Assembly: GCA_033875325.1 (NCBI GenBank)
Contig: JANRKA010000071.1
Location: 8,980 to 72,979, forward strand
From: Elusimicrobiota bacterium
GTDB lineage: Bacteria > Elusimicrobiota > Elusimicrobia > UBA1565 > UBA9628
Direction: 5' to 3'
DNA length: 64,000 bases
The translations under genes and the position numbers were made by a program. Positions 26,949 to 50,281 of the stretch are shown here, piece by piece (position 1 is the first letter of the stretch; each line of letters opens with the position of its first letter). Below the pieces are notes generated by a model. It was not told where the DNA came from, made no database searches, and saw only the letters and a list, made by a program, of their open reading frames with translations.

Positions 26949-27036
26949 GCTGGGGGACAGGCACCCAGCTTAACAGACCTGTCCCACAACTTAAGGGGAC
27001 TGTCCCCGTAAGCTGGGTGCCTGTCCCCTAGCTTAC
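26947..27036. repeat. cluster of three palindromic elements sharing core GGGGACAG/CTGTCCCC between convergent genes (probable bidirectional terminator / REP-like)
   Basis: AAGCTGGG-GGACAGGCA-CCCAGCTT is at 26947-26971. The palindrome GGGGACTGTCCCC is at 26995-27007. The inverted copy GTAAGCTGGGTGCCTGTCCCCTAGCTTAC is at 27008-27036. They overlap the stop codons of dagK-like (+) and cupin (-). Confidence 0.55.
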
Positions 27037-27482
27037 TTGGGGAGGTCGGCGGGTTTGGAGTCGTAGGGGCCGTCGAAGGCGATGAGGAACTCCGCGCCGC
27101 CCCAGCCGCCGGTGGACAGGGAAAAGGCGGTCCCCGCCGGGATGAGGGCGTAGTCGCCGGCCTTCAGCGTCTCGGCGCGCGTCCCGAAGTCCAAGGTGAG
27201 CTTGCCTTTGAGGACGAGGAAGGTCTCGTGGCGGGAGTGGGTGTGCGGGGGGATGTGATACCCCTTGGGCACGCGCACCAGGGCCTGGACGGCGTGTGTC
27301 GCGGGGTCCTCCCAGACCAAGTGGTACTCCGCGCCGGGCGGCAGGGACCCGGAAGCCGCGAAACGCTGCTCGCCCGAGCGGCGCACCACGGGGCCCGCGG
27401 CGGCGCCGTCGGCGGGCGCGGACTGGGCCGCGGCGAGGGCCGCGTGAAGGGCGACGGCGACGACGAAGAGGGCGCGCCGCAT
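27033..27482 (-). CDS. secreted cupin-domain protein
   Basis: The start is MRRALFVVAVALHAALAAAQ, a signal peptide. The cupin motifs are 'HTHSRHETFLVLKG' and 'GDYALIPAG'. Confidence 0.6.
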   Translation of the reverse strand: MRRALFVVAVALHAALAAAQSAPADGAAAGPVVRRSGEQRFAASGSLPPGAEYHLVWEDPATHAVQALVRVPKGYHIPPHTHSRHETFLVLKGKLTLDFGTRAETLKAGDYALIPAGTAFSLSTGGWGGAEFLIAFDGPYDSKPADLPK

Positions 27483-27487
27483 CAAAA

Positions 27488-27532
27488 TGGTGGCGGGGGA
27501 CAGGATCGAACTGTCGACACCCGGTTTTTCAG
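27488..27532 (-). pseudogene. orphan 45-nt copy of tRNA-Phe 3' exon (anticodon loop to CCA), diverged direct repeat
   Basis: The RNA-sense sequence is CTGAAAAACCGGGTGTCGACAGTTCGATCCTGTCCCCCGCCACCA. This aligns to the 27703-27747 exon with 5 substitutions. No matching 5' half lies upstream. Confidence 0.6.
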
Positions 27533-27702
27533 ACTGGACTACATTTGGGAATGGTCGGACGAAAAAACATCTGTTTTTCCGTCGCTTTTCGATACTCAAA
27601 ACGGTCAAAAACGACCACTTCCAACGAATTTTTGTCGAGATGTGTGTCGAGATGAGCCCTTTTTCAGGGCCCATCCCGACATCACGCGACGGCTTTCAAA
27701 GA

Positions 27703-28021
27703 TGGTGGCGAGGGCCAGGATTGAACTGGCGACACCCGGTTTTTCAGCGTTTTGTTACCGCTCCACGCGGAGCAGGGCCGACCTTCCGACCTCTTCACGT
27801 TACCGTGAAGACCAGACTATATCTTCCGCTTCGAGAGCGGTTAGGCGTGTAGTCGTTACGGGTTCCCCGAGGTTTACGCTCCTCGAGGCCTTCCCTCGGT
27901 ATTGTCCTCCCAGCTCTCGCCGGGGTGGGAGTTCCACCGATATAGCCTAATGCAATTCCCGCCGTCGCCGGCGGGAGGGGCCGATTTGTTGACCGGTGCT
28001 CTACCACTGAGCTACCTCGCC
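27703..28021 (-). tRNA. tRNA-Phe(GAA) interrupted by a group I intron (5' exon 27992-28021, 3' exon 27703-27747)
   Basis: Joining the exons gives GGCGAGGTAGCTCAGTGGTAGAGCACCGGT|CTGAAAAACCGGGTGTCGCCAGTTCAATCCTGGCCCTCGCCACCA. This is a canonical cloverleaf. The anticodon loop CUGAAAA gives anticodon GAA. The variable loop GUGUC and the overall layout match E. coli tRNA-Phe. Confidence 0.8.
27748..27991 (-). ncRNA. group I intron (IC3-like) inserted between tRNA positions 31 and 32
   Basis: The 244-nt insert carries the conserved catalytic core 'GACUACACG' (R/P7 5') and 'AAGAUAUAGUC' (S/P7 3'). The 5' exon ends in U and the intron ends in G (omega-G). A candidate IGS GCCGG can pair with exon CCGGU to form a U•G wobble. 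Confidence 0.7.
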
Positions 28022-28103
28022 ACGGACTTACTTGGTAGAACAACGAGATTATGCCACATTCCCGGCTAGGTGGCAATGTAGACGAGATTCTGCGGGCGCG
28101 AGC

Positions 28104-29210
28104 TTAGGCGGCTAACACGCGAAGGAGGCTGCCGTCCTCGGCGACATGCAGCAGCTTGTTCGGTTGGGCGTGGGCCTTGAGCGGGATATCGAGCAGCTTT
28201 TCGAACTCCCACTTGTTCAGCGCTTCCACGACCGCCGCGTCGAGCCCGAACTCGAGACTGAGGGGGTGGTGGGGCTCCCATTCGGGCCGGCGCTCCGGCT
28301 TGCCAGGCGCCTCCAATCGGAGCGGGCCAATCTGTTTGATCAAGTCCGCCGTCTCGCCGTATTCGTCCCGCAGGAACGTCCTTCCTTCGTGCTGGATCTC
28401 GCCCTGAAACTTCGGCATCTTTTCCACGACAGGCCCCGGAATCCATTTCTTGGTTCGGACGATCTCGGAGCTTCTGCGCTCGATGGCGCTGGCGAGAGTC
28501 GCCATGCCCGCAAGGGCTGCCGCGCTTCGGTAATGCCGCGCGAGCTGTAGATAGCGTTCCTCAGTCGACGGCGGCTTCAGGTCCTCGTCCCCCGGGGGAT
28601 CGAAGATGAAGAGCTCGACCGGCGGCCCATCGTTCGGCAGAGAGGAAATCACGCCGTACTTGTAGTTGGCGACATGCGCGGCCTTCTTGGCAGCGAGGTC
28701 TTTGGAGGCGCCGCGCACCTGCGAGCGTCTGCTCCGTCCCCGCGCCTCATAGACGGCGGTGAAGCCTCGTGAAACCACGCGGAAGTCGCATCGCTTGCTC
28801 GTGGTGGTAATTCGGGTGATCTCCGCGAGCTTGACCGAGAGAGCCTTGCACATCGTCAAGGTCGCCAGCCCGACGCCGAGCACCTGGGAGACCGCCCCCG
28901 TCCACTCGTGATCGCCAGACGCTCTCAGATGCAGGGCCTCCGTGCCCGCGTCTCGATACATGGTTCCAGCGAGGTCATCGAAGGCCCGGACTATTCGCCG
29001 GGCGGGCCCGCAGTCGCGGATGAGATAATGAACGGAGGCGTAGTGGATCAGGGCGATGGGGCGAATCGTGATTCCGGTTCGCACAAGATTCCTGAGCACT
29101 CCACTGTGCGGGTAGCTGTTCGTGGCACAGGAGCCATCGCCGTCTCGCACGGGAATAGAACATTCCGCGAATAGGTCCCTGATGAAGCCGGGAATGCCTG
29201 AGTACAGCAT
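28104..29210 (-). CDS. hypothetical 368-aa protein (no recognisable domain), first gene of a 3-gene minus-strand cassette
   Basis: It is a long ORF with good codon usage and lies next to the tRNA. It contains an Rx4H stretch (RASGDH). Confidence 0.4.
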   Translation of the reverse strand: MLYSGIPGFIRDLFAECSIPVRDGDGSCATNSYPHSGVLRNLVRTGITIRPIALIHYASVHYLIRDCGPARRIVRAFDDLAGTMYRDAGTEALHLRASGDHEWTGAVSQVLGVGLATLTMCKALSVKLAEITRITTTSKRCDFRVVSRGFTAVYEARGRSRRSQVRGASKDLAAKKAAHVANYKYGVISSLPNDGPPVELFIFDPPGDEDLKPPSTEERYLQLARHYRSAAALAGMATLASAIERRSSEIVRTKKWIPGPVVEKMPKFQGEIQHEGRTFLRDEYGETADLIKQIGPLRLEAPGKPERRPEWEPHHPLSLEFGLDAAVVEALNKWEFEKLLDIPLKAHAQPNKLLHVAEDGSLLRVLAA

Positions 29211-29648
29211 CTACCGCGCTTCGAGCCGCCAACGTGCCTCGCGTTTGCCGAGGCTCCGCACCGCGATCAGCGCCGCGCGGTTCTTGTCGCGAGGCCTGGA
29301 GCGGCCGCCTTCCCAGGCCGAAACCGCTCCCGCGCTCGCTCCCACCAGCTTTCCAAAAGCCTCTCGTGAAAGACCCAGGCGGGCACGCTGCGAGCGGATC
29401 AAGTGAGGCCCGAGGTGCGCGTTCTTCACCTCTGCTCCCGAGGCGGTGGGGGGCGCAGTCATGCGCGCTCTATAGTCGGTCTGGAGCTTGGCGTTGTCTC
29501 GCCGCAGTTGGTCCGTGGTCCGGGACAGCTCCGCGACCTTGTGCTTGAGGGCGATGACATCCTTCCTGAGCTTGGCGTCTGCTTGGCGCGACACTCGGCG
29601 GGCCAATCGCTGGATTTCTTCTCTAAGAACCGCACCGATGTTGGGCAT
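29211..29648 (-). CDS. XRE-family helix-turn-helix protein with N-terminal coiled coil
   Basis: 'IRSQRARLGLSREAFGKLVGASAGAVSAWEGG' is an HTH_XRE. The N-terminal 60 aa show a heptad-like pattern. The stop abuts the start of the 368-aa gene. Confidence 0.55.
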   Translation of the reverse strand: MPNIGAVLREEIQRLARRVSRQADAKLRKDVIALKHKVAELSRTTDQLRRDNAKLQTDYRARMTAPPTASGAEVKNAHLGPHLIRSQRARLGLSREAFGKLVGASAGAVSAWEGGRSRPRDKNRAALIAVRSLGKREARWRLEAR

Positions 29649-29658
29649 GTCGTCCCTC

Positions 29659-30087
29659 CTAAAACTTCGTCGCGCAAACGAACGCGCCGATTCCGATGAA
29701 AAGAAGCACCGCCGCGCTGCATGCGTAATCCGCCGCGGTGTACCAGCACTCCGCCTTGCCCATTTCCGCGAATCGAGCGTCGAGCTCCTTCATCTGATCG
29801 TCGGCTGGGTCTTTACGCTCATGTTTGCCGAGCCATCGGCTCCAATGACGCAGGGATTTCGCTTGGTGCTGGCTTCCGAGATAATGCGCGAGCTGCTGGA
29901 CCAGGCAGGCACAGATAGGGACGAAGAACAGGCGCGCCATTCCTCGCAGCGAGGCTTCTTTCCCCAGCTCGTATAGCGCTCCGGTCGAAAGGCCGATGAC
30001 CGTTGTCATCAGCGCTAAGCCGACGCCGCGGTAGCGTTCGTGGGCCTGCTCGGCTTTCTCCGATTCGGCTTCGGTATCTAGTGCCAT
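29659..30087 (-). CDS. small membrane protein (2 predicted TM helices)
   Basis: It is 142 aa. Hydrophobic segments are 'GVGLALMTTVIGLSTGAL' and 'AAVLLFIGIGAFVCA'. Confidence 0.4.
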   Translation of the reverse strand: MALDTEAESEKAEQAHERYRGVGLALMTTVIGLSTGALYELGKEASLRGMARLFFVPICACLVQQLAHYLGSQHQAKSLRHWSRWLGKHERKDPADDQMKELDARFAEMGKAECWYTAADYACSAAVLLFIGIGAFVCATKF

Positions 30088-30091
30088 CGTT

Positions 30092-31627
30092 TCAAGGTTT
30101 CAGCTTCAGTCGTTTGATCCGCGGCACGAAGATCTCATGGAAGCGTTCGAGGGAATGGAGCATCCATTCGTACGCCTGGGGCCATGCCGCCCGGTCGAGG
30201 AGCTTGCCGTCGAAATGGGTCTGGATCTGGCTTTCCTTCTTCGTGGGGAGCGGCTCCCAGCGTAGAGGAGCGCCGAATTCCTTATCGATCGCCGCCTTCT
30301 CCGTCTTCAGCAGCTCGTAGTTCTTCTTGCGATCCGGACCCTTGATCGCGATGTAGACGGCGAGCCGGTTCTGGCTCGCGATGGCGACGTAAAGGAAACC
30401 CCCGGTGTTGATCGTCATCCAGCCCTTCGGGCGCGGGACTGGATAGCGTAGTTTGCTGCCGGCTTTCTCCGCGTAGTTGCGGAAGCCGCTCCAGAAGTCG
30501 AACTGCAGTTTCGTGACGCCGCCCGCCCCGTTGGTCGACGCGCGCCCCGGCAGCGCCTCGTCCAGGTAAGGCTTCAGGACCTCGATGAAGCGGTGGATGC
30601 GTCCGGCGATGAATTCCGGGTCATCGGGCACCGTCTCGTAGAGACAACTCGAAGGATGATCCTCCCAGGAAACTTTGTCGCCGAGGGCCTCCTCGATTTC
30701 GCGCCGGTGGGCGGTGAGCAGGGTCTTGAGCGCGCGGTTATGGCGAGGCTGGCAGTTGGTGTGTACCTGGAACGTGCGATCCGCGGGGTCGTAGTAGAGA
30801 GAGATACCCTCATAGATGGTCTTCCAGCGCGAGAAGACGCCTTGAACATACTGCTTGCTCCTGTGGAGCCTCCAGCCCTCGCCGGCGGGGCAGTCATCCT
30901 TTAACATTCCCTCCACGCCGTCGAGCAGCTTGGAAAAGCGTTCCTTCACGTCCGCAGGCACGTTTGCTGCTTCCCCATCCTCATTCTCGTCGTCTTCCTT
31001 TGCGGACTGTGCCGGCCGCGCGGAGTCGTGCAGGGGGTTTATCAGCAGGTATTCATCGTTCGTCGTCGTGACGAAATTTGAGAACTGCAGGACGCGGCAG
31101 TCGAATCGAAGGCCGCTGATCTGGGTGATGAAGTCGGAGTCGAAGTCTTCCGCCACTACGACGCCGACCTGTTCGTCGTTGAAGTCTGGTACGTGAGTGA
31201 CCTTGAAGTGCTCCTTGAAGCGTCGCACGAGGTTGTTGACTTCGCGGTCGAAGGGGATGAGGTTCGCCTTGCGCGCGAGCTCGCCGTCGGACCACCCGCT
31301 GATCGCGGTGAGGTAGTCGTTGAGCTGGGCGACGGTATCGCGGGGAGCCCTCCCGCGCTTCAATTCGATCACGACGACGCGGCCGTGCTGGTCGAGAGCG
31401 AGCAGATCGATGAACGCGCCGCGATCGGTCTTCACCTGCCGGCCGATGAGGAGGATGTCGTCGCCGAGCAGATGCGGATTGGCGCCGAGCCAGTCCTCGA
31501 GGTTCTTCTCCAGGCGCTCGAAGCCGAACTGCCTCTTCTGGATCGGCTGGAACACCCCGGCGTCCGACTTGAACAGCTTCATCGTCATGTTACAAGGATG
31601 ATACCAAGCACGGTCCAGCGAGTCCAC
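30092..31627 (-). CDS. NucS/DUF91-like PD-(D/E)xK nuclease fused to C-terminal DUF4268-like domain
   Basis: It has 'GAFIDLLALDQHGRVVVIELKRG', the D…ExK nuclease core. The C-terminal region is 'GWMTINTGGFLYVAIA…YIAIKGP'. An alternative start at Met14 (31588) overlaps, as ATGA, a small upstream ORF. Confidence 0.6.
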   Translation of the reverse strand: MDSLDRAWYHPCNMTMKLFKSDAGVFQPIQKRQFGFERLEKNLEDWLGANPHLLGDDILLIGRQVKTDRGAFIDLLALDQHGRVVVIELKRGRAPRDTVAQLNDYLTAISGWSDGELARKANLIPFDREVNNLVRRFKEHFKVTHVPDFNDEQVGVVVAEDFDSDFITQISGLRFDCRVLQFSNFVTTTNDEYLLINPLHDSARPAQSAKEDDENEDGEAANVPADVKERFSKLLDGVEGMLKDDCPAGEGWRLHRSKQYVQGVFSRWKTIYEGISLYYDPADRTFQVHTNCQPRHNRALKTLLTAHRREIEEALGDKVSWEDHPSSCLYETVPDDPEFIAGRIHRFIEVLKPYLDEALPGRASTNGAGGVTKLQFDFWSGFRNYAEKAGSKLRYPVPRPKGWMTINTGGFLYVAIASQNRLAVYIAIKGPDRKKNYELLKTEKAAIDKEFGAPLRWEPLPTKKESQIQTHFDGKLLDRAAWPQAYEWMLHSLERFHEIFVPRIKRLKLKP

Positions 31628-31712
31628 GGCGGGTCGGTCCGCGGGCGCTCCACCCCGTTGGGGTCCTGAACGAAGGAAGTGCTTTTCCCGGCTGCCGACA
31701 TAACGCAGGTCT

Positions 31713-31989
31713 TATTTTTCATAACCACCTCCCGCTCAGCCGGCCAGGAGTGAGCGGCGCCGCGCCTGCGGCATAAACGGTCACCCCCGCCGACGATCGG
31801 GAAATTCGGCCCAACCCCCGCCGTGCCCCAAATTGCCCGACAGCGCGCTCCGCGCGGCCGCCAGCTCGGCTGCGCCGGGGGCGGTCGCCAGGTGGGGACC
31901 CACCATTTATTCCTCATCGCGGCGCCGCTCCTCGGCCGCCTTCGACCCTTCGGGCGTTCGGAGGTGGTTATGAAAAATAAGACCTGCGT
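31713..31989. repeat. perfect 30-bp inverted repeat pair bracketing a 217-bp leader; the right copy contains the RBS+ATG+6 codons of the JAB gene
   Basis: 31713-31742 is ACGCAGGTCTTATTTTTCATAACCACCTCC. It is the exact reverse complement of 31960-31989, GGAGGTGGTTATGAAAAATAAGACCTGCGT. Confidence 0.7.
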
Positions 31990-32518
31990 GAAAGTCGTAA
32001 CGGACGGCAAGACGGACACGGCGCCGGTAGCTGGTGAGTCTCTGGCCACGGAAGCCATGAAGCGTTCGAGGGTGCCTCTCTACCGGGTGATGCTCGACCG
32101 GACGGGCTCTATCCTCAAGGAGGGGACGGCATTCGTCACGGAGCCGCGAGAGGCTGCGCGGTTGTTCCGTGAGTTCATCGGGGACGCACCGCAGGAGCAC
32201 TTCTGTCTGATGGTGCTCGACGCGAGAAAGCGGGTCATCGGAATCAACGAGGTCAGCGTAGGGACGCTCTCCGCGTCCTTGGTGCATCCGCGAGAGGTCT
32301 TCCGGGCGGCCATCCTGCTCAACGGCGCGGCCGTCGTGGTGGCGCACAACCACCCGAGCGGCGACCCGGCTCCTTCCCCGGAGGACCGCGAGGCGACCCG
32401 ACGGCTCCAACGCGCGGGAGAAATCCTCGGCATTCCCGTCGCGGACCACATCGTGCTGGGAGAGGGCGAAGGAGCCTCCCTACGCTTCTTCAGCTTCCGC
32501 GACGGCGGGTTGCTCTAG
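31970..32518 (+). CDS. RadC-like JAB/MPN domain protein (DUF2466)
   Basis: It has 'VVAHNHPSGDPAPSPEDREATRRL', the HNHPSG JAMM-like motif. Confidence 0.8.
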   Translation: MKNKTCVKVVTDGKTDTAPVAGESLATEAMKRSRVPLYRVMLDRTGSILKEGTAFVTEPREAARLFREFIGDAPQEHFCLMVLDARKRVIGINEVSVGTLSASLVHPREVFRAAILLNGAAVVVAHNHPSGDPAPSPEDREATRRLQRAGEILGIPVADHIVLGEGEGASLRFFSFRDGGLL

Positions 32519-32586
32519 GGCGTCCACGCCGCCGCCCTGGGGCGACCCGGGGCGGTCCGTGGGCGCCTTAGCCCAAGGAGAACACC

Positions 32587-33051
32587 ATGAACATGAATGA
32601 ATGCGTAAGCCGTGAGCGCGAGGCGTTGAAGGAGCGGCGGCGTCTGCTGGTCGAGAAGCTCAAGCCGTTCGGAGTCGTCAGGGTCGAGGTCGATTACGAC
32701 GGCTGCGGGGACTCGGGCGATATCCAGGAAGTCCGCGCCTTGAAGAAGGGCCCCCGCTCCGACAAGGAGCAGCCCGCGAACCTGGACGGGCAGAGCGTCA
32801 CAGTCGAGCGCTTCGAGAGCGTCTACAACACCGAGCGCAAGGACTGGGACCGCAAGCCCTACCAGGCCACGGTGACGCTCAAGGAGGCGTTGAGCGACTT
32901 CGCGCTGGACTTCCTCTCGTTCCTCGGCATCGACTGGTACAACAACGAGGGCGGCTACGGGACCATCGTCCTGGATGTGGCGGGGGACGAGGCCAAGGCC
33001 GAGCACAACTATCGCATCGAGTCCAGCGAGTATTCGGAGCACGCCCTGTGA
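32587..33051 (+). CDS. hypothetical protein (mobile-element-associated)
   Basis: It is 154 aa and acidic, with 'DYDGCGDSGDI'. It overlaps the next gene as ATGA. Confidence 0.4.
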   Translation: MNMNECVSREREALKERRRLLVEKLKPFGVVRVEVDYDGCGDSGDIQEVRALKKGPRSDKEQPANLDGQSVTVERFESVYNTERKDWDRKPYQATVTLKEALSDFALDFLSFLGIDWYNNEGGYGTIVLDVAGDEAKAEHNYRIESSEYSEHAL

Positions 33052-33422
33052 GCCATACCTACCACCATGCCGTGAGCTCGGCTCGACTGTTCGGCGGCAA
33101 GCCCGAGGACTACCAGGCCGTTCATGACTGGTTCGACGAGAGCAAGGCCCACTTGGCCGAAGCCAGGCACCGGGCCAAGCGCCACCACGCGGAAGGCATC
33201 TTCGAGGCCGAGCGCGTGTTCGGCAAGACCATCATCAACAGCAACGGGACGAAGGTGCCCGTGCGCTACATCGGCGAGCAGCACGTCAAGGAGGATTGCG
33301 GCGGCTTCATCCCGTCCGAGGCCGATTGGTGGCGCTGCATCGTGCGCCAGCCGTGGATGAACCGCGGCTACGAGAGCAAGGACGGCTCCAACGCGCGGGC
33401 GGTCCGCGCGTCGGAGCCGTAA
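33048..33422 (+). CDS. hypothetical protein
   Basis: It is 124 aa and translationally coupled to the upstream gene. A hairpin terminator follows it. Confidence 0.4.
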   Translation: MSHTYHHAVSSARLFGGKPEDYQAVHDWFDESKAHLAEARHRAKRHHAEGIFEAERVFGKTIINSNGTKVPVRYIGEQHVKEDCGGFIPSEADWWRCIVRQPWMNRGYESKDGSNARAVRASEP

Positions 33423-33436
33423 CGCAAAAGCGGTTC

Positions 33437-33465
33437 GGGGCCCGTCGGCGAAAACCGACGGGCCC
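33437..33465 (+). terminator. hairpin terminator GGGGCCCGTCGG-CGAAAA-CCGACGGGCCC
   Basis: It is a perfect 11-bp stem. The 3' U-tract is weak (TCTGCTTTG). Confidence 0.55.
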
Positions 33466-33469
33466 TCTG

Positions 33470-33650
33470 CTTTGCGGTGGATATTGCCGCGCCCGTGGAC
33501 GGCGTGGACGAGCAGGTCGCCCACCCCGCCCACCGCCGCTTGGATATCTCTGCCCTGCGGGGCGGATCGGTCCGCGACGCTCCACCCGCGCGAGAGGCCG
33601 CGGGGTCCCCGAGATCTCCACAATCTCCACCGCTCGGCGGCGGAGATTTT
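33470..33650 (+). repeat. partial copy (C) of island repeat family
   Basis: It shares 'GCGGTGGATA..CGTGGACGGCGTGGACGAGC.GGTCGCCCACCCCGCCCACCGCCGCTTGGAT', the palindrome GGCGGATCGGTCCGCG, and the tail 'CTCCACCGCTCGGCGGCGGAGATTT' with copies at 36961, 63775 and 35925. Confidence 0.6.
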
Positions 33651-33699
33651 TTCTTCTTCTCCTTCCACGGCACTTCCCGCTCCGCCGCCTCCCTTCTTC

Positions 33700-33923
33700 G
33701 GTCTGGTCCATTTCGCACCTTCTCTCGGGCCGCAGGAGTGAAGCCCGCCTGCGCTGCGGCATAAACGGTCACCCCTCTCGGCGACTCCCCGGCCGCTCCA
33801 GAGCCTTGCTCGTTCCGCTGGCCGGGTCCCTGCCGGGGGACCCACCATTTATTCCTCGCTTCGACGGACTTCCTCGCGACCCTCCACCCTCCGGGCGGGC
33901 GGAGGTGCGAAATGGCCCAGACC
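33700..33923. repeat. imperfect inverted repeat pair bracketing a 184-bp leader homologous to 31743-31959; right copy includes start codon of gene 33912
   Basis: 33700-33719 is GGTCTGGTCCATTTCGCACC. The reverse complement of 33904-33923 is GGTCTGGGCCATTTCGCACC. Similarity continues into the coding region: the left copy encodes MDQTEEGRRRSGK and the right gene begins MAQTYETRRRSGK. Confidence 0.6.
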
Positions 33924-34298
33924 TACGAGACTCGGCGGCGGAGCGGGAAGCACGAAGGCTCTGACGTGAAAGTCCAGGGACGGAGCCAAGCACCCCGGGA
34001 GAAGCACATGAAAACTGGAAAAGCGTTGGGCTTCAAGAAGGGGGACTTCGTCCACACGGGAGCGTTCCCCGGAATCATCATCAGCGACGTGCAGACGTTC
34101 GCGCCGTGTTGCGAGGTTTGGGGCTTCGAGCACGAGATGGGCTCGGCCTACGCCGAGGACATGACGCTTCTGACCTGGGAGAACTTCCAGGAACTCGCCA
34201 AGCGCTTCGGCTTCGACAGCACCGCCGACTCCAAGACGGCGCAGGAGGCCATCGCCAAGGCGAAGGCGGCGGCTTCGGGGGTTCCCGTAACTGCCTGA
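33912..34298 (+). CDS. hypothetical protein
   Basis: It is 128 aa with no recognised domain. It lies downstream of a conserved leader module. Confidence 0.4.
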   Translation: MAQTYETRRRSGKHEGSDVKVQGRSQAPREKHMKTGKALGFKKGDFVHTGAFPGIIISDVQTFAPCCEVWGFEHEMGSAYAEDMTLLTWENFQELAKRFGFDSTADSKTAQEAIAKAKAAASGVPVTA

Positions 34299-34364
34299 TT
34301 CGACCAGGGGTCCCGAGGGCGACCTCGGGGCCCCGAGCCGGGCCAGGCCCGGGAACTGAAACAC

Positions 34365-35894
34365 ATGGAGAAAACAATGAACGAGACGAAAGAGAAGGAA
34401 GCCATGAAGGTGCCGGAGCGCGCGCTGTTGAGCATCCCGCTCGACAAGGTCGAAATCGTGGAGAACGTCCGCAGGAACTTCGACGCGGCTGAAATGAAGG
34501 AACTCGCGGCGAACATTAAGAAGGTCGGCATCCTGCAGAACATCATCGTCATCCGCAACGGCAAGGGAGCCTACACGCTCTCGGCAGGCGAGCGCCGGGT
34601 GCGGGCCGCGCGGATGGCGGGGCTCGTCGAGATTCCCGCGTCCGTGTACGAGGAAGGCGTGGACCCGAAGATGCTCCAGGTGTTCGAGAACCTCCACCGC
34701 AAGGACGTGGGGCCCGTCGAGGAGGCGCGGGGCTTCAAGCACCTTCTCGACGAGGGCAAGCACACCATCGAGGGCCTGGCGCAGGCCGTGGACAAGTCGG
34801 TGAAGTACGTGACGCGCTCGATTCGGCTCCTCGAACTGCCGAAGGCGGCGGTCAAGGCCGTCGAGGCGGGAACGCTCTCGCCCGAGCACGGCCATCAAAT
34901 CCTCCGCGCCCCGGAGGACAAGCGCGAGACGTTCGTGACGTTCGCGCTGACGCCCAAGTGGGGCGGCGGGAGCGACGTGCTTCCCACCATCCACGACCTC
35001 AAGAACGAAATCGAGCGGCGTTTGGAGAAGGACCTCTCGAAGGCCTGCTTCCCGAAGGACAAGGAGTACGCGGGGGCCATGGCCTGCTCGCTCTGCCCGT
35101 TCAACACGGGCAACCAGGACGTGCTGTTCGAAGGGGCCAAGGACGGCAAGTGCACCGACGGCGGGTGCTTCGCCAAGAAAACGTCCACGTTCCTGCGGGA
35201 GTTCCGCGAGGATGCGGGCAAGAAGCTCGGCGGGGTCAAGTTCGCGGGCTACGCGGGCCAGGACCACGGCATGCCGCGCGAGGTCGGCGAGGGCGTCGTG
35301 CTGAGCGCCTCGGAGGCCAAGAGCGAGGCGGTCAAGGCGCTCCTCAAGAAGGACCCCAAGAAGTTCGGCTTCGCCGTGCTCAAGCCGTCGCGGTTCGGGA
35401 GCAAGTCGCCGAGCGCGGTCCTCGTCTGCAACGACAAGGACTTCGTGACGGCGAAGCTCCGCAAGTCCGAGGAGAAGGCCGAGCGCGGTATGAGCGAGGA
35501 GGAGCGGGCCAAGGCTCACTTCGTCGCGACTCATGAGAGCAAGGCGCTGTTCCTCGCGGCGGCGAAGTCGCTCAAGGCAGTCAAGAAGTCGCACTTGGTG
35601 GACGTGGTCATGGCCTTGAACGGCGAGGAGTTGGCGTTCGAGGCCATCGGCGTCGAGGCCGACGAGGACGCGGCGCGGGCGCTCAAGAAGTTGTCCGAGA
35701 AGGACCTCCTGCGCCTGGCGTGGCTGTGCACGGTCCAGCACTACGAGTTAGACGAGCGCCTCTCGGGCCTCATCGAGGTCAAGAAGGTCCGCAAGGAAGC
35801 GCGGACGTTCGCGCACTCTGAGTGGGAGCGCATCCAGAAGGAGGAGGCCGCGAAGGCCGAGGCTCCGAAGGAGGTTGAGCCCGCCGTGAAGTAG
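34365..35894 (+). CDS. ParB/Sulfiredoxin-like nuclease domain protein (plasmid/ICE type)
   Basis: The N-terminal 'ILQNIIVIRNGKGAYTLSAGERRVRAARMAGL' is the ParB GERR-like motif. The long K/E-rich C-terminus has a Cys cluster 'CSLCPFN…CTDGGC'. Confidence 0.7.
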   Translation: MEKTMNETKEKEAMKVPERALLSIPLDKVEIVENVRRNFDAAEMKELAANIKKVGILQNIIVIRNGKGAYTLSAGERRVRAARMAGLVEIPASVYEEGVDPKMLQVFENLHRKDVGPVEEARGFKHLLDEGKHTIEGLAQAVDKSVKYVTRSIRLLELPKAAVKAVEAGTLSPEHGHQILRAPEDKRETFVTFALTPKWGGGSDVLPTIHDLKNEIERRLEKDLSKACFPKDKEYAGAMACSLCPFNTGNQDVLFEGAKDGKCTDGGCFAKKTSTFLREFREDAGKKLGGVKFAGYAGQDHGMPREVGEGVVLSASEAKSEAVKALLKKDPKKFGFAVLKPSRFGSKSPSAVLVCNDKDFVTAKLRKSEEKAERGMSEEERAKAHFVATHESKALFLAAAKSLKAVKKSHLVDVVMALNGEELAFEAIGVEADEDAARALKKLSEKDLLRLAWLCTVQHYELDERLSGLIEVKKVRKEARTFAHSEWERIQKEEAAKAEAPKEVEPAVK

Positions 35895-35906
35895 GCCTGT
35901 TGACTT

Positions 35907-35932
35907 GGCCCATCCGGGAAACCGGGTGGGCC
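35907..35932 (+). terminator. hairpin terminator GGCCCATCCGGG-AAA-CCGGGTGGGCC
   Basis: It is a stable GC hairpin immediately after the ParB-like stop. Confidence 0.5.
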
Positions 35933-36070
35933 TCTGTGAGCGGGTCGTGCCTGGATGAACGGGGAAAACTTCGATGGCCGGAGTTCGCCCCCTGGCGGGG
36001 CGCGGACCGGTCCGCGAGCGCTCCTCCCTGCCGGATCGGCCGCAGGGACCGCGAACTCCGGTGGAACTAA
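35925..36070 (+). repeat. diverged copy (D) of island repeat family
   Basis: It contains the perfect palindrome CGCGGACCGGTCCGCG at 36001-36016, followed by 'GCTCCTCCCTGCCGG…GGGACCGCGAACTCC'. This is similar to the tail of the copy at 63775. Confidence 0.5.
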
Positions 36071-36479
36071 ACGCGGGGGTCGTTCGTATAGCTTGTGTGG
36101 ATCAGGAGACCCCCGACGCATTCCGGTGGGAGGAATGGGACTGGCGGCCGCTGGCGCGCCTCATCGCCTGGGTCCTCCTCGCCGCCCTTTGGGCGCGCTC
36201 GCGAGACATCGTCTCGCTCGCGCTCATTCAGCGCGTTCTCCGCGAGCTCCTGCTCGGCTGGCTGCTCTCCTTCGGCCTGCTGACTTATGTCCAAGCGCTG
36301 ATCGCCACCGCGGCCTTCCGCCTCGCGCTCGCGCTCGACGACGCCGCTTACGGCCTGTCGGAACGCCTCGTGAGGCTCTTCATGCGCCGCGCGTCGTTCG
36401 CCGCGACTTTCGTCGCGGCGTTCGGCGTCGAGCTCACGTTCGTTCTCGGCGCGCTTTGTCTCGTCGTGGGGGCGCTGCG

Positions 36480-36899
36480 ATGATTACGAGCCTGCGGGTC
36501 GTGCACGCGGGCCGCCGCCCAGGGCCTCTCATCCGTTCGGCCGAGGACGCCTACCGCGTGCTGTGCCCGCTGGCGCGGGGCCTCGACCGCGAGCACTTCT
36601 GGCGGCTCGACCTCGATTCGCGGCGGCGGTTGCTCGGCTGCGAGCTCGTCTCGATGGGAAGTCTCGACGCCTCGATCGTCCATCCGCGCGAAGTGTTCAA
36701 AGGTGCGCTCCTGAACAACGCGCACAGCATCATGGTCGCGCACAATCATCCGTCCCATGACTTGAGGCCTAGCCAGGCGGACCGACGGACCACGAAGCAA
36801 CTCCTGTTCGTCGCGTGCATGCTCCAGGTGGACCTGGTCGACCATCTCATCGTCGGCGACGACAGCTACTTCAGTTTCAAGAAAGCGGGACTTCTCTAG
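36480..36899 (+). CDS. RadC-like JAB/MPN domain protein, second copy
   Basis: It has 'IMVAHNHPSHDLRPSQADRRTTKQL'. The ATG overlaps the stop of an upstream hydrophobic ORF (35974-36483) that may encode a small membrane protein. Confidence 0.7.
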   Translation: MITSLRVVHAGRRPGPLIRSAEDAYRVLCPLARGLDREHFWRLDLDSRRRLLGCELVSMGSLDASIVHPREVFKGALLNNAHSIMVAHNHPSHDLRPSQADRRTTKQLLFVACMLQVDLVDHLIVGDDSYFSFKKAGLL

Positions 36900-36960
36900 A
36901 AAAGAGGAAGCCCAGCGCCGAGAGCGCCGGGCCTCCTGTCGAACGAAGCAGCTCCTGGGG

Positions 36961-37270
36961 GAAAAGCTTCGCTCAAGGCGAGTATAGAGCGCGAAGCGTG
37001 GAGCGCGCAAGACCCAAAAAGATAACCCAGCCCCCCATCCGTAAGAGCCGGGTCATCGTCCTATCGAGGGTTGCCTTACGAGGGGCCCCCGACAGAACGG
37101 AGCATAATCCCGGCGCCCGGATATTTCAAGACCCAAAAGTCCCAGGGCTGCGGTGGATACCGCCGCGTCCGTGGACGGCGTGGACGAGCGGGTCGCCCAC
37201 CCCCGCCCACCGCCGCTTGGATTTCTCCGCGCCTGCGGCGCGCGCGGACCGGTCCGCGTGCGCTCCTCCC
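36961..37270 (+). repeat. full-length copy (A) of ~300-bp island repeat family with internal 110-bp insertion
   Basis: 'GAGTATAGAGCGCGAAGC…GCGGTGGATACCGCCGCGTCCGTGGACGGCGTGGACGAGCGGGTCGCCCACCCCCGCCCACCGCCGCTTGGATTTCTCCGCGCCTGCGGCGCGCGCGGACCGGTCCGCGTGCGCTCCTCCCCGCCG' is ~95% identical to 63775-63950. Confidence 0.75.
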
Positions 37271-37395
37271 CGCCGGCGATCCGAAAACCTGGCCCAACCC
37301 CAGCCTAGCCCTTAGTTTTCGAACGGCTAGCGTGCCGCGAGGCGGCCAGCCCGGCTGCACACTCGAACAAGACTAGTGTCGCTCGTCTCGCGAAT

Positions 37396-37412
37396 ATACC
37401 CACCCCCAGTAT
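37396..37412 (+). promoter_or_regulatory. candidate CsoR/RcnR-type operator ATACCCACCCCCAGTAT
   Basis: It is a G/C-tract flanked by inverted TAC…GTA arms. This resembles RcnR/CsoR operators (TACT-G6-N-AGTA type). It lies 15 bp upstream of the regulator's ATG. Confidence 0.55.
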
Positions 37413-37426
37413 GCTATGCTAGGGAC

Positions 37427-37678
37427 ATGTCTCACGGGACAACCAAGAAGCGCGGACTCCTCAACCGCGTCAATAGAATCCGCGGGCAGGTCGAGGCGAT
37501 CGGCCGCGGCCTCGAAGACGAGCGTGACTGCTCGAGCCTTCTGCAGACCATCGCTGCGTGTCGAGGCGCCATCGATGGCCTCATGGCGGAGGTGATCGAG
37601 GATCACATCAAATCCCATCTCACCGAGCCCCGCGCGACCCGAACGCTGCTCGCCGTCGTCCGTTCATATTTGAAGTAA
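37427..37678 (+). CDS. CsoR/RcnR/FrmR-family metal-sensing transcriptional repressor
   Basis: 'LNRVNRIRGQVEAIGRGLEDERDCSSLLQTIAACRGAIDGLMAEVIEDHIKSH' gives the C-H-C ligand pattern of DUF156. Confidence 0.75.
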   Translation: MSHGTTKKRGLLNRVNRIRGQVEAIGRGLEDERDCSSLLQTIAACRGAIDGLMAEVIEDHIKSHLTEPRATRTLLAVVRSYLK

Positions 37679-37696
37679 AGACAAGAAGAGGACATT

Positions 37697-37963
37697 ATGG
37701 ACCCGAAGATCGTGATGACCGCATTCTCGATGCTGTTCCTCGCCGAGATGGGGGATAAGACCCAGCTCGCCGTGCTCACTTTGAGCGCATCGAGCGGCAG
37801 GCCCGGGTCGGTGTTCATCGGCGCGGCGGCGGCCTTGATCGCGGTCACGGCGCTCGGGGCCTTTATAGGCGCCGCTACTGGACGGTTCGTTTCGCCCGTG
37901 CTGCTCAACCGGGTCGCGGCGACGTCCTTTATCGCCATAGGCTTATGGATGTGGGCGCGCTGA
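37697..37963 (+). CDS. UPF0016 (GDT1/TMEM165/MneA) half-size cation transporter subunit
   Basis: It has the signature 'E-x-G-D-K-T-Q' (EMGDKTQL) in TM1 and 3 TM helices. Confidence 0.7.
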   Translation: MDPKIVMTAFSMLFLAEMGDKTQLAVLTLSASSGRPGSVFIGAAAALIAVTALGAFIGAATGRFVSPVLLNRVAATSFIAIGLWMWAR

Positions 37964-37964
37964 T

Positions 37965-38918
37965 ATGCACAACGAATCAATAGAGCGTTGGACCCATGAC
38001 CACGTCTTCGGCCAAGATCGCCCGCGGTCGGGAGAAAGCCGGACGCAACTCGTGATCGTCATCACGGCGGTCATGATGGCGCTTGAGATCGGAGCCGGAA
38101 TCGCCTACGGCTCGATGGCGCTGCTGGCGGACGGGCTCCACATGGCCTCGCACGCTTCCGCGCTTGCCATCTCAGCGTTGGCCTATTACTACACCAGGCG
38201 GCACGCCCATGACGCGCGCTTCAACTTCGGCACAGGCAAGATCAACTCGCTGGCCGCCTTCGCGAGCGCGACGCTGCTCGCGGCATTCTCCGTGATCATG
38301 ACCTGGCAGAGCGCGGCGCGGCTCCTCGCTCCGGTCAAGATCGAGTTCAACCAGGCGATCCTCGTCGCCACCCTGGGATTGGCGGTCAACGGCGTCTGCC
38401 TGCTCATCCTCAAAAACCGCGGGCACTCGCACGACGACGAGCACGAGCATGCTCACGACGATCATGGGCACGCCGAGGATAGCGATCACAACCTCTGGTC
38501 CGCCTATTTGCACGTCCTGGCCGACGCCCTCACTTCGGTCTTGGCGATCGCGGCGCTGCTCGCCGGAAAGCGATTCGGCATGACATGGATGGACCCGGCC
38601 ATGGGCATGCTGGGCGCCGCGCTCGTCATCCGCTGGGCCTGGCAGCTTCTGCGCGCATCAAGCCATGTCCTCCTGGATATGCAGGCCCCGGAGACGATGC
38701 GGCGGGCCATCTGCGAGGCGATCGAGCGGCGCGGGAATGCCCGAGTGACGGACCTCCACGTATGGTCCGTGGGTCCTGGAATCTATGCGGCGGAGATCGG
38801 CGTCGTCGCCTCGGAGCCCGCGAGCGCGGACGAATACCGCAAGCTTCTTCCTGAAGCGCTTGGCGTCGTCCATGTCACGGTCGAGGCGCAGCGCTGCGAG
38901 TCGCGCGCCTCGGCATAG
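37965..38918 (+). CDS. czcD: cation diffusion facilitator (CzcD-type) metal efflux transporter
   Basis: It has the CDF TM core ('HMASHASALAIS', 'YLHVLADALTSV'), a His-rich loop 'HSHDDEHEHAHDDHGHAED' and a C-terminal cytoplasmic domain. Confidence 0.85.
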   Translation: MHNESIERWTHDHVFGQDRPRSGESRTQLVIVITAVMMALEIGAGIAYGSMALLADGLHMASHASALAISALAYYYTRRHAHDARFNFGTGKINSLAAFASATLLAAFSVIMTWQSAARLLAPVKIEFNQAILVATLGLAVNGVCLLILKNRGHSHDDEHEHAHDDHGHAEDSDHNLWSAYLHVLADALTSVLAIAALLAGKRFGMTWMDPAMGMLGAALVIRWAWQLLRASSHVLLDMQAPETMRRAICEAIERRGNARVTDLHVWSVGPGIYAAEIGVVASEPASADEYRKLLPEALGVVHVTVEAQRCESRASA

Positions 38919-38927
38919 GCCGATCTC

Positions 38928-40145: not shown

Positions 40146-40213
40146 GATCAAAGACGGGCTCGAGACCAGGGCGCTGTCCAGCAGGGCAGCTATAGCGAAA
40201 AACACGATTTTTC

Positions 40214-40279
40214 TTATTGAGATTGATTTTCAATAAGAATTGTGTTAGGCTCTCCCTTATTGAAATGACATTTCAATAA
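40214..40279 (+). promoter_or_regulatory. two AT-rich palindromic operators (TTATTGAGATTGATTTTCAATAA and perfect TTATTGAAATG-A-CATTTCAATAA) upstream of siderophore locus
   Basis: It is an AT-rich island in GC-rich DNA. The second site is a perfect 11+1+11 palindrome immediately before the RBS AAAGGAGG. A Fur/metalloregulator-box-like architecture is possible. Confidence 0.55.
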
Positions 40280-40292
40280 GAAAGGAGGGCCG

Positions 40293-50271: not shown

Positions 50272-50281
50272 GGACTATTCC

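What the first reader, a model, noticed from the sequence alone, without database searches (positions are those of the whole stretch)
27703..28021. Group I intron splitting tRNA-Phe(GAA) at the anticodon stem/loop junction
The 5' exon (28021→27992) and 3' exon (27747→27703) on the minus strand join into a textbook tRNA-Phe. A 244-nt insert separates them. It carries the group I catalytic-core elements GACUACACG and AAGAUAUAGUC. The last exon residue is U, the last intron residue is G, and a GCCGG guide sequence can pair with CCGGU. Known bacterial tRNA group I introns sit in tRNA-Leu(UAA), tRNA-fMet, tRNA-Ile and tRNA-Arg, inside the anticodon loop. A tRNA-Phe host and a 31/32 insertion point would both be unusual.
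Basis: partly seen in the sequence, partly recalled or inferred. Interest (0 to 1): 0.8.

Follow-up and report, generated by a model that had tools for sequence, protein, structure and literature searches.

The report
Self-splicing intron in island-borne tRNA-Phe
The tRNA-Phe gene split by a group I intron is real, and it sits on a 12.7-kb inserted DNA island that broke the bacterium's own intron-free tRNA-Phe gene, so the intron-bearing copy most likely serves as the replacement.

Summary
On the minus strand, 28021..27992 and 27747..27703 join into a perfect tRNA-Phe(GAA). The 244 nt between them are a group I intron inserted between positions 31 and 32. Rfam scores it 47.4 bits against a cut-off of 50. 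Seventeen homologues show strong covariation in P2, P5a, P6a, P8 and P9, and exon-exon pairs covary across the intron.

This tRNA and insertion site are not new. A near-identical Elusimicrobiota tRNA-Phe 31/32 intron is listed in Table S5 of an mSystems 2026 paper.

The context is new as far as I found. A second, orphan tRNA-Phe 3' half lies 215 nt downstream (27532..27488). Nine related loci carry an intact intron-free tRNA-Phe at that exact spot, beside the same cupin gene, with an identical 3' half. So about 12.7 kb of lower-GC DNA (about 27538..40213) inserted into the host tRNA's anticodon loop, at CTGAAAA, without rebuilding the gene. The split gene lies at the edge of that insert.

The same pairing recurs in at least two element families. 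It resembles phage "tRNA-dependent lysogeny". The replacement gene's own attachment-site sequence is physically interrupted by the intron. Whether that gives protection is inferred, not shown.

The parts
28048..28076 (-). Promoter-like site for the split gene: TTGCCA, 17-nt spacer, TG-CATAAT. It lies about 27 nt upstream of the tRNA 5' end.
   Evidence: 10 of 12 matches, 1 found against 0.1 expected. The GGCATAATC motif is conserved in L005, L009, L011 and L030.
27992..28021 (-). 5' exon of tRNA-Phe(GAA), canonical positions 1-31. It ends in CCGGU.
   Evidence: The acceptor, D-stem and anticodon-stem pairs with the 3' exon are 100% intact in the homologues counted (14 to 17 per pair, by completeness).
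27748..27991 (-). Group I intron, 244 nt, with no ORF. The terminal G (omega G) is at 27748.
   Evidence: A near-identical published entry is classed IA3.
27979..27994 (-). P1: exon GGU plus intron C (27994..27991) pairs with GGCC (27982..27979). The U:G wobble sits at the 5' splice site.
   Evidence: helix 3: 4 pairs invariant in 17 of 17 sequences. They are consistent with the model but do not test it.
27958..27975 (-). P2 hairpin with a GNRA loop (GCGA).
   Evidence: helix 4: 6 of 7 pairs changed on both sides, 99% of cells paired.
27861..27950 (-). P3 5' strand (27950..27945) and the P4-P5-P5a-P6-P6a domain (27940..27861).
   Evidence: P3 has 1 covarying pair, P4, P5 and P6 are invariant, P5a covaries at 6 of 6 pairs and P6a at 6 of 8.
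27815..27854 (-). Catalytic core: P7 5' strand GACU (27854..27851), P3 3' strand (27846..27841), P8 (27840..27826), J8/7 AAGAUAU (27825..27819) and P7 3' strand AGUC (27818..27815).
   Evidence: P7 is invariant and P8 has 3 of 5 covarying pairs. The P3/P7 pseudoknot can be written for all 17 sequences.
27758..27811 (-). P9 with a GUAA loop (27811..27792) and two further 3' hairpins, P9.1 and P9.2 (27791..27758).
   Evidence: P9 has 4 of 8 covarying pairs. P9.1 and P9.2 are less well aligned, at 67-77% of cells paired.
27703..27747 (-). 3' exon of the split tRNA-Phe, positions 32-76 including CCA. It begins with the anticodon loop CUGAAAA.
   Evidence: It differs from the host-type 3' half at 4 positions, which include one compensated T-stem pair.
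27538..27702 (-). Spacer of 165 nt at about 47% GC, read as the P arm of the element's attachment site. It holds two ATCTCGACA boxes (27653..27645 and 27641..27633) and ends in ..AAATGTAGT.
   Evidence: It is conserved in L005, L009, L011, L030 and L035. Reading the boxes as integrase arm sites is inference; two copies in the window alone are only weakly above chance.
27526..27537 (-). Junction core: CCAGT, an imperfect copy of the anticodon-stem strand CCGGT, followed by CTGAAAA, the anticodon loop. Homology to empty-site genomes starts here.
   Evidence: L011 diverges right after CTGAAAA. L041 homology begins at window 27537.
27488..27532 (-). Orphan 3' half of the host's original intron-free tRNA-Phe.
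   Evidence: second exact copy of an 18-mer, with 0.01 expected. It is 45 of 45 identical to the 3' half of the intact tRNA-Phe in nine empty-site loci.
27538..40213 (.). Inserted island of about 12.7 kb at GC 0.60-0.66, against 0.70-0.78 for the host. It carries HTH, DUF4268/NucS, two RadC, DUF6878, DUF6915, ParB-like, CsoR-like (my reading, not scanned), CDF and MFS genes. No integrase and no host 5' half are present at the left end.
   Evidence: The left limit, about 40146..40214, is set by where homology to L041 resumes.
27033..27482 (-). Host cupin-domain gene. It is the conserved neighbour downstream of tRNA-Phe in this Elusimicrobiota clade and was used as the synteny anchor.
   Evidence: P0001 is 100% identical and labelled Elusimicrobiota MAG.

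Best explanation
The 244-nt insert is a self-splicing group I intron. It has a full P1-P9 core, a U:G pair at the 5' splice site, a terminal G and no ORF. It sits between positions 31 and 32 of a tRNA-Phe(GAA) gene. That gene is not the organism's ancestral tRNA-Phe.

The gene lies at the right-hand edge of about 12.7 kb of foreign DNA. This DNA inserted by site-specific recombination into the 7-nt anticodon loop (CTGAAAA) of the host's intron-free tRNA-Phe. The insertion did not rebuild the host gene. Its 3' half now sits orphaned 215 nt downstream, and its 5' half and promoter are gone from this window. The island's own promoter-driven, intron-containing tRNA-Phe therefore most likely supplies tRNA-Phe after transcription, self-splicing and exon ligation.

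At the DNA level, the intron separates the left core arm (CCGGT) from the crossover segment (CTGAAAA) in the island's copy. So the replacement gene does not present a contiguous attachment site to an integrase that targets intron-free tRNA-Phe.

Shown: the intron's anatomy, the insertion, the empty sites and the recurrence elsewhere. Inferred: splicing in vivo, dependence of the host on this copy, and any selective benefit from the interrupted site.
For: Intron. Rfam RF00028 gives 47.4 bits, E = 9.7e-11. ARAGORN -i calls tRNA-Phe with a 244-nt intron. In the P1-P9 model on 17 homologues, 94.5% of cells pair, against 36-50% when partners are slid. Forty pairs changed on both sides, and 0 of 500 shuffles reached any of the five measures.

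Functional tRNA. Exon-exon pairs are 100% intact. Anticodon-stem pair 28:42 covaries across the intron (CG 8, UA 6, AU 1). The spliced product folds as a cloverleaf. A promoter-like site is present.

Insertion. The orphan 3' half is a second exact copy. GC drops at 27.5 kb. Nine syntenic loci hold an intact 75-nt intron-free tRNA-Phe directly upstream of the cupin gene, and all nine tRNAs are identical. L050 also has one, though its sequence was not extracted. Their 3' half equals the window's orphan copy. Collinearity with L041 starts at window 27537 and resumes near 40.2-40.9 kb.

The split gene travels with the island. L005, L009 and L011 share island genes next to the split gene but have different downstream DNA. 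L011 shows an attP-like form that diverges exactly after CTGAAAA.

Recurrence. Orphan 3' halves occur in L005, L008, L009 and L035. Orphan 5' halves ending CACTGGT-CTGAAAA, followed by a shared non-tRNA arm, occur in L018 and L038, and a different arm follows in L039. A tyrosine integrase abuts a split gene in L037.
Against: No integrase and no left junction (host 5' half) are present in the window. The recombinase is therefore inferred from other loci and from the shape of the junction. The Rfam score is below the gathering cut-off. The core helices P1, P4, P5, P6 and P7 never vary, so covariation neither supports nor refutes them. No splicing data exist.

The rest of the genome was not available, so another tRNA-Phe gene elsewhere cannot be excluded. 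Four loci with the split gene (L017, L028, L031, L040) show no attachment junction within reach, so the link to an element is not shown for every copy.

In L042 the same box-bearing arm precedes an intact tRNA-Phe. This shows the family is more varied than the simple model. Both group I introns and integrases favour the anticodon loop, so their coincidence is partly expected.
Confidence: 0.8

Rival explanations
1. The intron is only a selfish passenger. It sits in the anticodon loop region because group I introns in tRNAs almost always do. That it interrupts the attachment-site sequence of the island's tRNA copy has no selective meaning.
For: Surveys report bacterial tRNA group I introns at nearly all positions of the anticodon loop. 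Tyrosine integrases also commonly cross over in that loop (and my own knowledge of Williams 2002). Overlap is therefore expected by chance. The phages with tRNA-dependent lysogeny manage without introns; the word occurs once in that paper. Four loci (L017, L028, L031, L040) show the split gene without a nearby junction.
Against: Of 15 informative loci with this split gene, 11 show an attachment-type junction, an attP-like site, the conserved attachment arm alone (L030) or an integrase within about 2 kb. These fall in at least two unrelated arm families and in three different geometries. An uninterrupted copy 215 nt from the core would be a perfect target in direct repeat.
Confidence: 0.45
2. 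This is an ordinary chromosomal tRNA-Phe that acquired an intron in place. The orphan 3' half is an unrelated scar, for example from an old island or a local duplication.
For: The split gene is the only complete tRNA-Phe in the window. An Elusimicrobiota genome is listed with such a gene and no comment on context.
Against: Nine related loci have an intron-free tRNA-Phe at this exact position, and its 3' half and flank equal the orphan copy. The split gene differs from that host tRNA at 5 positions, with compensated pairs. It lies on the low-GC side of the boundary. It co-occurs with the island genes in loci that have different downstream DNA.
Confidence: 0.05
3. The split gene is a dead relic. 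The intron no longer splices, and tRNA-Phe is supplied by another gene outside the window.
For: No expression data exist. The island's left end is deleted, so decay is under way. The Rfam score is below the gathering cut-off.
Against: Exon pairs are 100% intact and show compensatory changes across the intron in all homologues whose exons are held. All catalytic-core elements are invariant, while peripheral helices covary. The promoter is conserved. The native gene at this locus is destroyed.
Confidence: 0.08

Closest known systems
[quoted passage not shown] Classical cases are tRNA-Leu(UAA), fMet, Ile(CAU) and Arg(CCU), extended to 21 settings by Williams 2020 (bioRxiv 10.1101/2020.01.27.920355). 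PMC13011429 Table S5 lists Elusimicrobiota GCA_023213235.1 tRNA-Phe(GAA) 31/32 with a 246-nt intron.
   Same: It is a small, ORF-less, self-splicing-type intron with U before the 5' splice site and G at the intron's end. Exon pairing in the anticodon stem is retained. The published Elusimicrobiota entry has the same exons, the same junctions and a nearly identical intron.
   Different: The classical four are subgroup IC3 and lie inside the loop. This one is at the stem/loop boundary, and its published relative is classed IA3. The same core 22-mer (viral scan) or 27-base split pattern (metagenome scan) also turns up next to phage-like ORFs and in 23S rRNA. No paper I found mentions a mobile-element context.
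tRNA-dependent lysogeny of actinobacteriophages (Guerrero-Bustamante and Hatfull 2024, PMC10865867)
   Same: In both cases an element integrates in a host tRNA gene through a short common core; here it is 9 nt, GTCTGAAAA, against about 10 bp there. [quoted passage not shown]
   Different: Here the carrier is a non-phage island with ParB, RadC and metal-efflux genes in Elusimicrobiota and other uncultured bacteria. The compensating tRNA sits right next to the attachment site and is interrupted by a group I intron at the attachment-core position. Dependence is not tested. In this window the integrase end has been lost.
Classical tRNA-targeting genomic islands (Islander/TIGER type, PMC4383910)
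   Same: A genomic island (integrative element) is inserted in a tRNA gene, with the crossover in the anticodon loop, and a displaced tRNA fragment marks one end.
   Different: Classical islands carry the tRNA 3' part in attP and regenerate the target gene (abstract). Here the arm next to the core is not a tRNA half, and a separate complete gene is supplied instead.
Randau and Soll's proposal that disrupted archaeal tRNA genes protect against integration of mobile elements (as cited in PMC4390854)
   Same: The idea is the same: an interruption in the anticodon region removes a recombination target while RNA-level processing restores the tRNA.
   Different: That proposal concerns host genes in Archaea with protein-spliced introns or split genes. 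Here the interrupted gene belongs to the mobile element itself, the organism is a bacterium and the intron is self-splicing.

Membership tests
Group I intron (Rfam RF00028) | Score at or above the curated gathering threshold | tested here: not met
   47.4 bits against 50, with E = 9.7e-11 in a 1-kb search. It is absent from the gathering-threshold scan. Williams 2020 notes that the Rfam seed holds no bacterial introns and used an 18-20 bit cut-off.
Group I intron | A P3-P9 core with the P3/P7 pseudoknot, the P4-P6 domain and the conserved P, Q, R and S sequence elements | tested here: met
   All helices can be written for 17 sequences, with 94.5% of cells paired. P2, P3, P5a, P6a, P8 and P9 show compensatory changes. 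P4, P5, P6 and P7 are invariant. The R element (..GUAACGACUACACG) and the S element (AAGAUAUAGUC) are present.
Group I intron | U at position -1 in a U:G wobble within P1, and G as the last intron residue | tested here: met
   U:G occurs in 17 of 17 sequences in the GGU|C:GGCC P1. The terminal CG| precedes CUGAAAA in every sequence that reaches the 3' splice site.
Group I intron | Guanosine-dependent self-splicing with exon ligation | not testable with these tools
   This needs in vitro transcription and splicing, or RNA-seq. The indirect support is selection on the exon-exon pairs.
Subgroup IC3 (the classical bacterial tRNA introns) | IC3-type peripheral and core architecture | not tested
   I ran no subgroup classifier. 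PMC13011429 Table S5 labels the near-identical intron IA3.
tRNA-Phe(GAA) | Cloverleaf fold, GAA anticodon, A73 discriminator and an isotype call | tested here: met
   ARAGORN calls the spliced sequence tRNA-Phe(gaa), 75 nt. The minimum-energy fold is a cloverleaf. The discriminator A followed by CCA is encoded.
Integrative element with tRNA-dependent integration (Hatfull type) | attB overlaps a host tRNA gene, with a short common core | tested here: met
   The empty site is an intact tRNA-Phe. Identity between the attP-like L011 and the tRNA is limited to GTCTGAAAA.
Integrative element with tRNA-dependent integration (Hatfull type) | The host tRNA is not reconstructed at either junction | tested here: met
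   At the right junction in the window, a non-tRNA arm is joined to the 3' half. Left junctions in L018, L038 and L039 show a 5' half plus CTGAAAA joined to non-tRNA sequence. The window's own left junction is missing.
Integrative element with tRNA-dependent integration (Hatfull type) | [quoted passage not shown] | tested here: met
   The split tRNA-Phe(GAA) lies 215 nt from the core.
Integrative element with tRNA-dependent integration (Hatfull type) | An element-encoded tyrosine integrase | tested here: not met
   No Phage_integrase hit among the ORFs scanned against Pfam in 28.1-40.1 kb. The smaller ORFs of 36.8-40.2 kb were listed but not scanned, and none looks like a recombinase. tblastn with the L037 integrase finds nothing in the window. 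Integrases are seen only in other loci, L037 and a remnant in L031.
Integrative element with tRNA-dependent integration (Hatfull type) | The element's tRNA is required for host viability after integration | not testable with these tools
   This needs genetics, or at least the complete genome's tRNA set.
Classical tRNA-targeting genomic island | An island-borne tRNA fragment regenerates the target gene | tested here: not met
   The sequence 5' of the core is CCAAATGTAGTCCAGT, not a tRNA 5' half. The far side in L011 is GACGGATGGCTACCCCCGCC, which lacks a T arm.

The most novel reading that the evidence does not exclude
A mobile element that destroys its tRNA target carries a working copy of that same tRNA, and a self-splicing intron hides the copy from the element's own integrase and from competitors. 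The intron thus acts as a DNA-level shield for the attachment site.

A corollary follows. Recombination between the 45-nt 3' exon and the orphan 3' half 215 nt downstream would leave an intron-containing tRNA-Phe at the native locus. That would be a route for introns to enter host tRNA genes by gene replacement rather than by homing.
Probability: 0.35. Interest if true: 0.8.

Novelty: new variant of a known kind. Interest (0 to 1): 0.6.

Why it matters
Taken alone, the intron is one more member of a catalogued class. The link to an integrative element is what matters.

First, it extends tRNA-dependent integration from actinobacteriophages to islands of uncultured phyla. In that mechanism the element breaks an essential tRNA gene and brings its own copy. 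Second, it offers a concrete, testable role for a bacterial group I intron: interrupting a recombination site in DNA while leaving the RNA product intact. The benefit of introns to their carriers is a long-standing question.

Third, it explains why default tRNA finders report no tRNA-Phe in such genomes. Fourth, it warns that orphan tRNA halves next to a split gene mark island borders. Fifth, in this window the integrase end is gone, so the host may now depend permanently on an intron-containing foreign tRNA gene.

Tried and rejected
(1) The Rfam gathering-threshold scan of the whole window returned only a fluoride riboswitch. The intron needs the E-value mode.

(2) Exact-protein look-ups of three window proteins found nothing. 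The cupin protein is nevertheless in the homology database as P0001.

(3) A BLAST search of the locus against plasmids gave only tRNA-Phe 3'-half hits in Acinetobacter.

(4) The viral-contig scan for the intron core found one unrelated intron next to a capsid-like ORF (L025). Scans for the attachment core and for the predicted left junction found nothing.

(5) Of the 24 hits in the genome scan, 6 were true homologues. The rest were chance matches or intron-free tRNA-Phe genes downstream of a chance AGATATAGTC.

(7) At first I took the whole 27.5-64 kb low-GC stretch as one island of at least 36 kb. Synteny with L041 shows that host genes (IucA/IucC, MFS-PepSY) resume at about 40.2-47 kb, so the island is about 12.7 kb and 47-64 kb is a separate block.

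(8) I looked for the host 5' half, a P' arm or an integrase at the left border and found none.

(9) I considered use of the orphan 3' half as an alternative 3' exon and rejected it. It is preceded by U rather than G, and its acceptor strand mismatches the 5' exon at pair 5:68.

(10) The junction in L037 could not be explained by conservative recombination at CTGAAAA and is left open.

Full report
**Observation.** On the minus strand the window reads GGCGAGGTAGCTCAGTGGTAGAGCACCGGT (28021..27992), then 244 nt, then CTGAAAAACCGGGTGTCGCCAGTTCAATCCTGGCCCTCGCCACCA (27747..27703). Default ARAGORN finds no tRNA anywhere in the 64 kb. With introns allowed it calls tRNA-Phe(gaa) at exactly these coordinates, with a 244-nt intron after ccggt. 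It also calls the joined exons a 75-nt tRNA-Phe. The joined sequence folds into the cloverleaf as its minimum-energy structure (-32.8 kcal/mol, z = -4.0). Because the exon ends in U and the intron in G, only one pair of junctions fits, at canonical positions 31/32.

**Is it a group I intron?** Rfam Intron_gpI matches 27793..28052 at 47.4 bits, E = 9.7e-11 in a 1-kb search. That is 2.6 bits below the gathering score, so the standard scan does not list it. To test the structure I collected homologues.
- One scan of species-representative genomes returned six (L005, L008, L009, L011, L017, L018).
- One metagenome scan returned ten more (L028, L030, L031, L034-L040).
- One sequence came from a published table.
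- L035, which lacks the 5' exon, was left out of the 17-row alignment.

I wrote out a P1-P9 model with the P3/P7 pseudoknot and counted it on the 17-sequence alignment.
- 94.5% of cells pair, against 36-50% when the partners are slid by 1-3 columns.
- Forty pairs changed on both sides.
- None of 500 shuffles reached the observed values.
- P2 (6 of 7 pairs), P5a (6 of 6), P6a (6 of 8), P8 (3 of 5), P9 (4 of 8) and P3 (1 of 6) covary.
- P1, P4, P5, P6 and P7 never vary, which fits a catalytic core but is not a test of it.

Read as a guide it shows no compensatory change, and its U:G pair fails in 4 of 17 sequences. An invariant GGU|C:GGCC P1 keeps U:G in all 17.

**Is the tRNA under selection?** All 21 exon pairs are intact in every homologue whose exons are held. 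Anticodon-stem pair 28:42, whose two sides are separated by the intron, occurs as C-G (8), U-A (6) and A-U (1). Acceptor and T-stem pairs covary as well. A sigma-70-like promoter (TTGCCA, 17 nt, TG-CATAAT) lies just upstream, and its -10 region is conserved in relatives. These results argue that the precursor is made and spliced. Splicing itself is not shown.

The 18-mer that starts the 3' exon occurs twice. A second 3' half, CTGAAAAACCGGGTGTCGACAGTTCGATCCTGTCCCCCGCCACCA, lies at 27532..27488, 215 nt downstream. It differs at four positions, one of them a compensated T-stem pair. Its acceptor strand does not match the 5' exon at pair 5:68. No second 5' half exists in the window. GC content is 0.70-0.78 below 27.5 kb, about 0.47 in the spacer, and 0.60-0.66 above it.

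**Empty sites.** The gene downstream of the orphan half encodes a cupin protein. Its exact match is annotated as coming from an Elusimicrobiota MAG contig of 137,893 nt (P0001). I fetched the loci of six homologues. Nine of the loci held (L041, L042, L045, L047, L049, L052-L055) have an intact, intron-free 75-nt tRNA-Phe(GAA) immediately upstream of the cupin gene. All nine tRNAs are identical, and their 3' half equals the window's orphan copy at 45 of 45 positions. L050 also carries one, but I did not extract its sequence.

L041 comes from a 3.1-Mb assembly. It is collinear with the window from 27537 down to 20961 at 83% identity, and its IucA/IucC gene matches window 41998..40915. The block from about 27538 to about 40213 is therefore an insertion into the anticodon loop of the host's tRNA-Phe. 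The split gene lies inside the inserted DNA.

**The island.** It encodes HTH, DUF4268/NucS, RadC (two copies), DUF6878, DUF6915, ParB-like, CDF and MFS proteins. It also has an ORF I read as a CsoR-like regulator, which I did not scan against a family library. At its left border the host promoter and 5' half are absent and no integrase is found. This copy has lost its left end and is probably fixed in place.

**The split gene travels with the island, not with the host.**
- L005 shares the island genes at 75-97% identity and the host cupin at 77%.
- L009 has island-type genes next to the split gene but a different host gene after its orphan half.
- L011 has the island genes, the split gene and the same spacer. 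Immediately after ..TAGTCCAGT CTGAAAA it continues as GACGGATGGCTACCCCCGCC.. and has a third ATCTCGACA box. I read this as an unrecombined attP. Identity between it and the tRNA is limited to GTCTGAAAA.
- L008 is a host relative (cupin, DAG kinase, protease). It has the same architecture, but none of the eight window island proteins queried has a match in it.

**A second family.** In L018 and L038 a host 5' half ending CACTGGT CTGAAAA is followed by a shared non-tRNA arm. The split gene lies 230 nt away in the same orientation (L018), or 1.8 kb away in inverted orientation past an AbiE toxin-antitoxin pair (L038). L039 shows a third arm. A 423-aa tyrosine integrase abuts a split gene in L037, and a remnant of a homologue lies 3.9 kb from the split gene in L031.

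Of 15 loci with enough flank, 11 show such a junction, an attP-like site, the conserved attachment arm alone (L030) or an integrase within about 2 kb.

**Mechanism, with shown and inferred steps marked.**
- Shown: site-specific insertion at CTGAAAA; no regeneration of the host tRNA; a complete tRNA-Phe of the same isotype carried next to the attachment site; and a group I intron in that gene that separates CCGGT from CTGAAAA.
- Inferred: a tyrosine integrase made the junction; the ATCTCGACA boxes are its arm sites (two copies in the window alone are only weakly above chance); the split gene is transcribed and self-splices; and it replaces the lost function.
- Inferred further: without the intron, the island's copy would be a perfect target in direct repeat 215 nt from its own core. 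The intron may therefore protect the element from self-recombination and from competitors. The rival view, that the overlap simply reflects two systems that both favour the anticodon loop, remains about as likely.

**Comparison with what is known.** Williams (2020) raised the number of intron-interrupted bacterial tRNA settings from 4 to 21 and tested the 31/32 position. The table is an image, and Phe is not named in the text. PMC13011429 (mSystems 2026) Table S5 lists Elusimicrobiota GCA_023213235.1 tRNA-Phe(GAA) 31/32 with a 246-nt intron, classed IA3, whose sequence is nearly identical to this one. The same paper lists a Patescibacteria tRNA-Phe intron at 33/34. So the host tRNA and the site are catalogued, but only in a supplement and without context.

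At the element level the closest system is tRNA-dependent lysogeny of actinobacteriophages (PMC10865867). It has a short common core, the tRNA is not rebuilt, and a phage tRNA compensates. Classical islands regenerate the target gene (PMC4383910). The idea that interrupted tRNA genes resist integration was proposed for Archaea by Randau and Soll (cited in PMC4390854). I found no paper that links a bacterial group I intron to an integrative element's replacement tRNA.

**Verdict.** The finding is real and its main interpretation is right. The claimed rarity is out of date. The added value is the context: an island-borne, intron-split replacement for a tRNA gene that the island itself destroyed. 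I rate it a new variant of known kinds, with interest 0.6.

Noticed in passing
window 62871-62937 (+): Fluoride riboswitch (crcB motif), 62.4 bits against a gathering score of 34. It lies inside the second low-GC block.
   Followed up: no
window 47000-64000: A second low-GC block (0.59-0.66) follows the host IucA/IucC and MFS-PepSY genes. It carries an outer-membrane efflux protein, an AcrB-type RND pump, a P-type ATPase, HupE/UreJ and a methyltransferase. It is probably a separate metal-resistance island whose borders were not mapped.
   Followed up: partly
window 33472-33553, 37148-37275, 63818-63944: Three copies of a 75-130 nt non-coding repeat, with 37201-37275 and 63870-63944 being 99% identical. 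The last two lie 26.67 kb apart, one in each low-GC block. This suggests the two blocks are related elements or share a module.
   Followed up: no
L037 5671-6100 (and 5947-7215): A 5' exon plus intron is followed directly by TTTTCAG, the reverse complement of the anticodon loop, instead of a 3' exon. A 423-aa tyrosine integrase on the opposite strand has its stop codon inside that heptamer. A second TATACTGAAAAG lies 74 nt away in inverted orientation. Simple conservative recombination at CTGAAAA does not explain this.
   Followed up: partly
L042 5790-5996: An intact intron-free tRNA-Phe is preceded by the GGCATAATC promoter motif and the two ATCTCGACA boxes of the island's arm, with AbiEi/AbiEii genes upstream. 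This may be a relative whose attachment arm carries a good tRNA 5' half and so regenerates the gene. In the window type, the split gene sits between that promoter and the boxes.
   Followed up: partly
L025, L026, L027, L029/L032, L033: The same conserved intron-core sequences (a 22-mer in the viral scan, a 27-base split pattern in the metagenome scan) occur in introns outside tRNA. These include 23S rRNA (L026), phage-like structural or tail genes (L025, L029/L032), a small cold-shock-like ORF context (L027), and an intron with what looks to me like a LAGLIDADG-type ORF (L033). This fits a phage-associated (IA-type) origin rather than the IC3 lineage of classical tRNA introns.
   Followed up: no
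L022 132-145 and 468-481: A Saccharibacteria MAG contig has two group I-like S elements (AAGATATAGTCTGT) 336 nt apart. The host genes were not identified.
   Followed up: no
window 40214-40285 (-): Two copies of the palindromic box CTTATTGAAA..TCAATAAG lie upstream of the IucA/IucC siderophore operon and are also present in L041. They resemble Fur-type operators. They mark the host side of the island's left border.
   Followed up: no
window 26950-27030 (-): A long imperfect inverted repeat (GGGGACAGGCACCCAGCTTA ... TAAGCTGGGTGCCTGTCCCC) lies between the convergent cupin and DAG-kinase genes. It is probably a bidirectional terminator.
   Followed up: no
L011 1-132 (P' side) and window 27538-27560: Both sides of the attP-like core look like a decayed tRNA-Phe. 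On the left, ..TGTAGTCCAGT resembles ..GGTAGAGCACCGGT. On the right, GACGG...CCCCCGCC resembles ACCGG...CCCCCGCC with the T arm missing. The attachment site may descend from a whole captured tRNA gene.
   Followed up: partly
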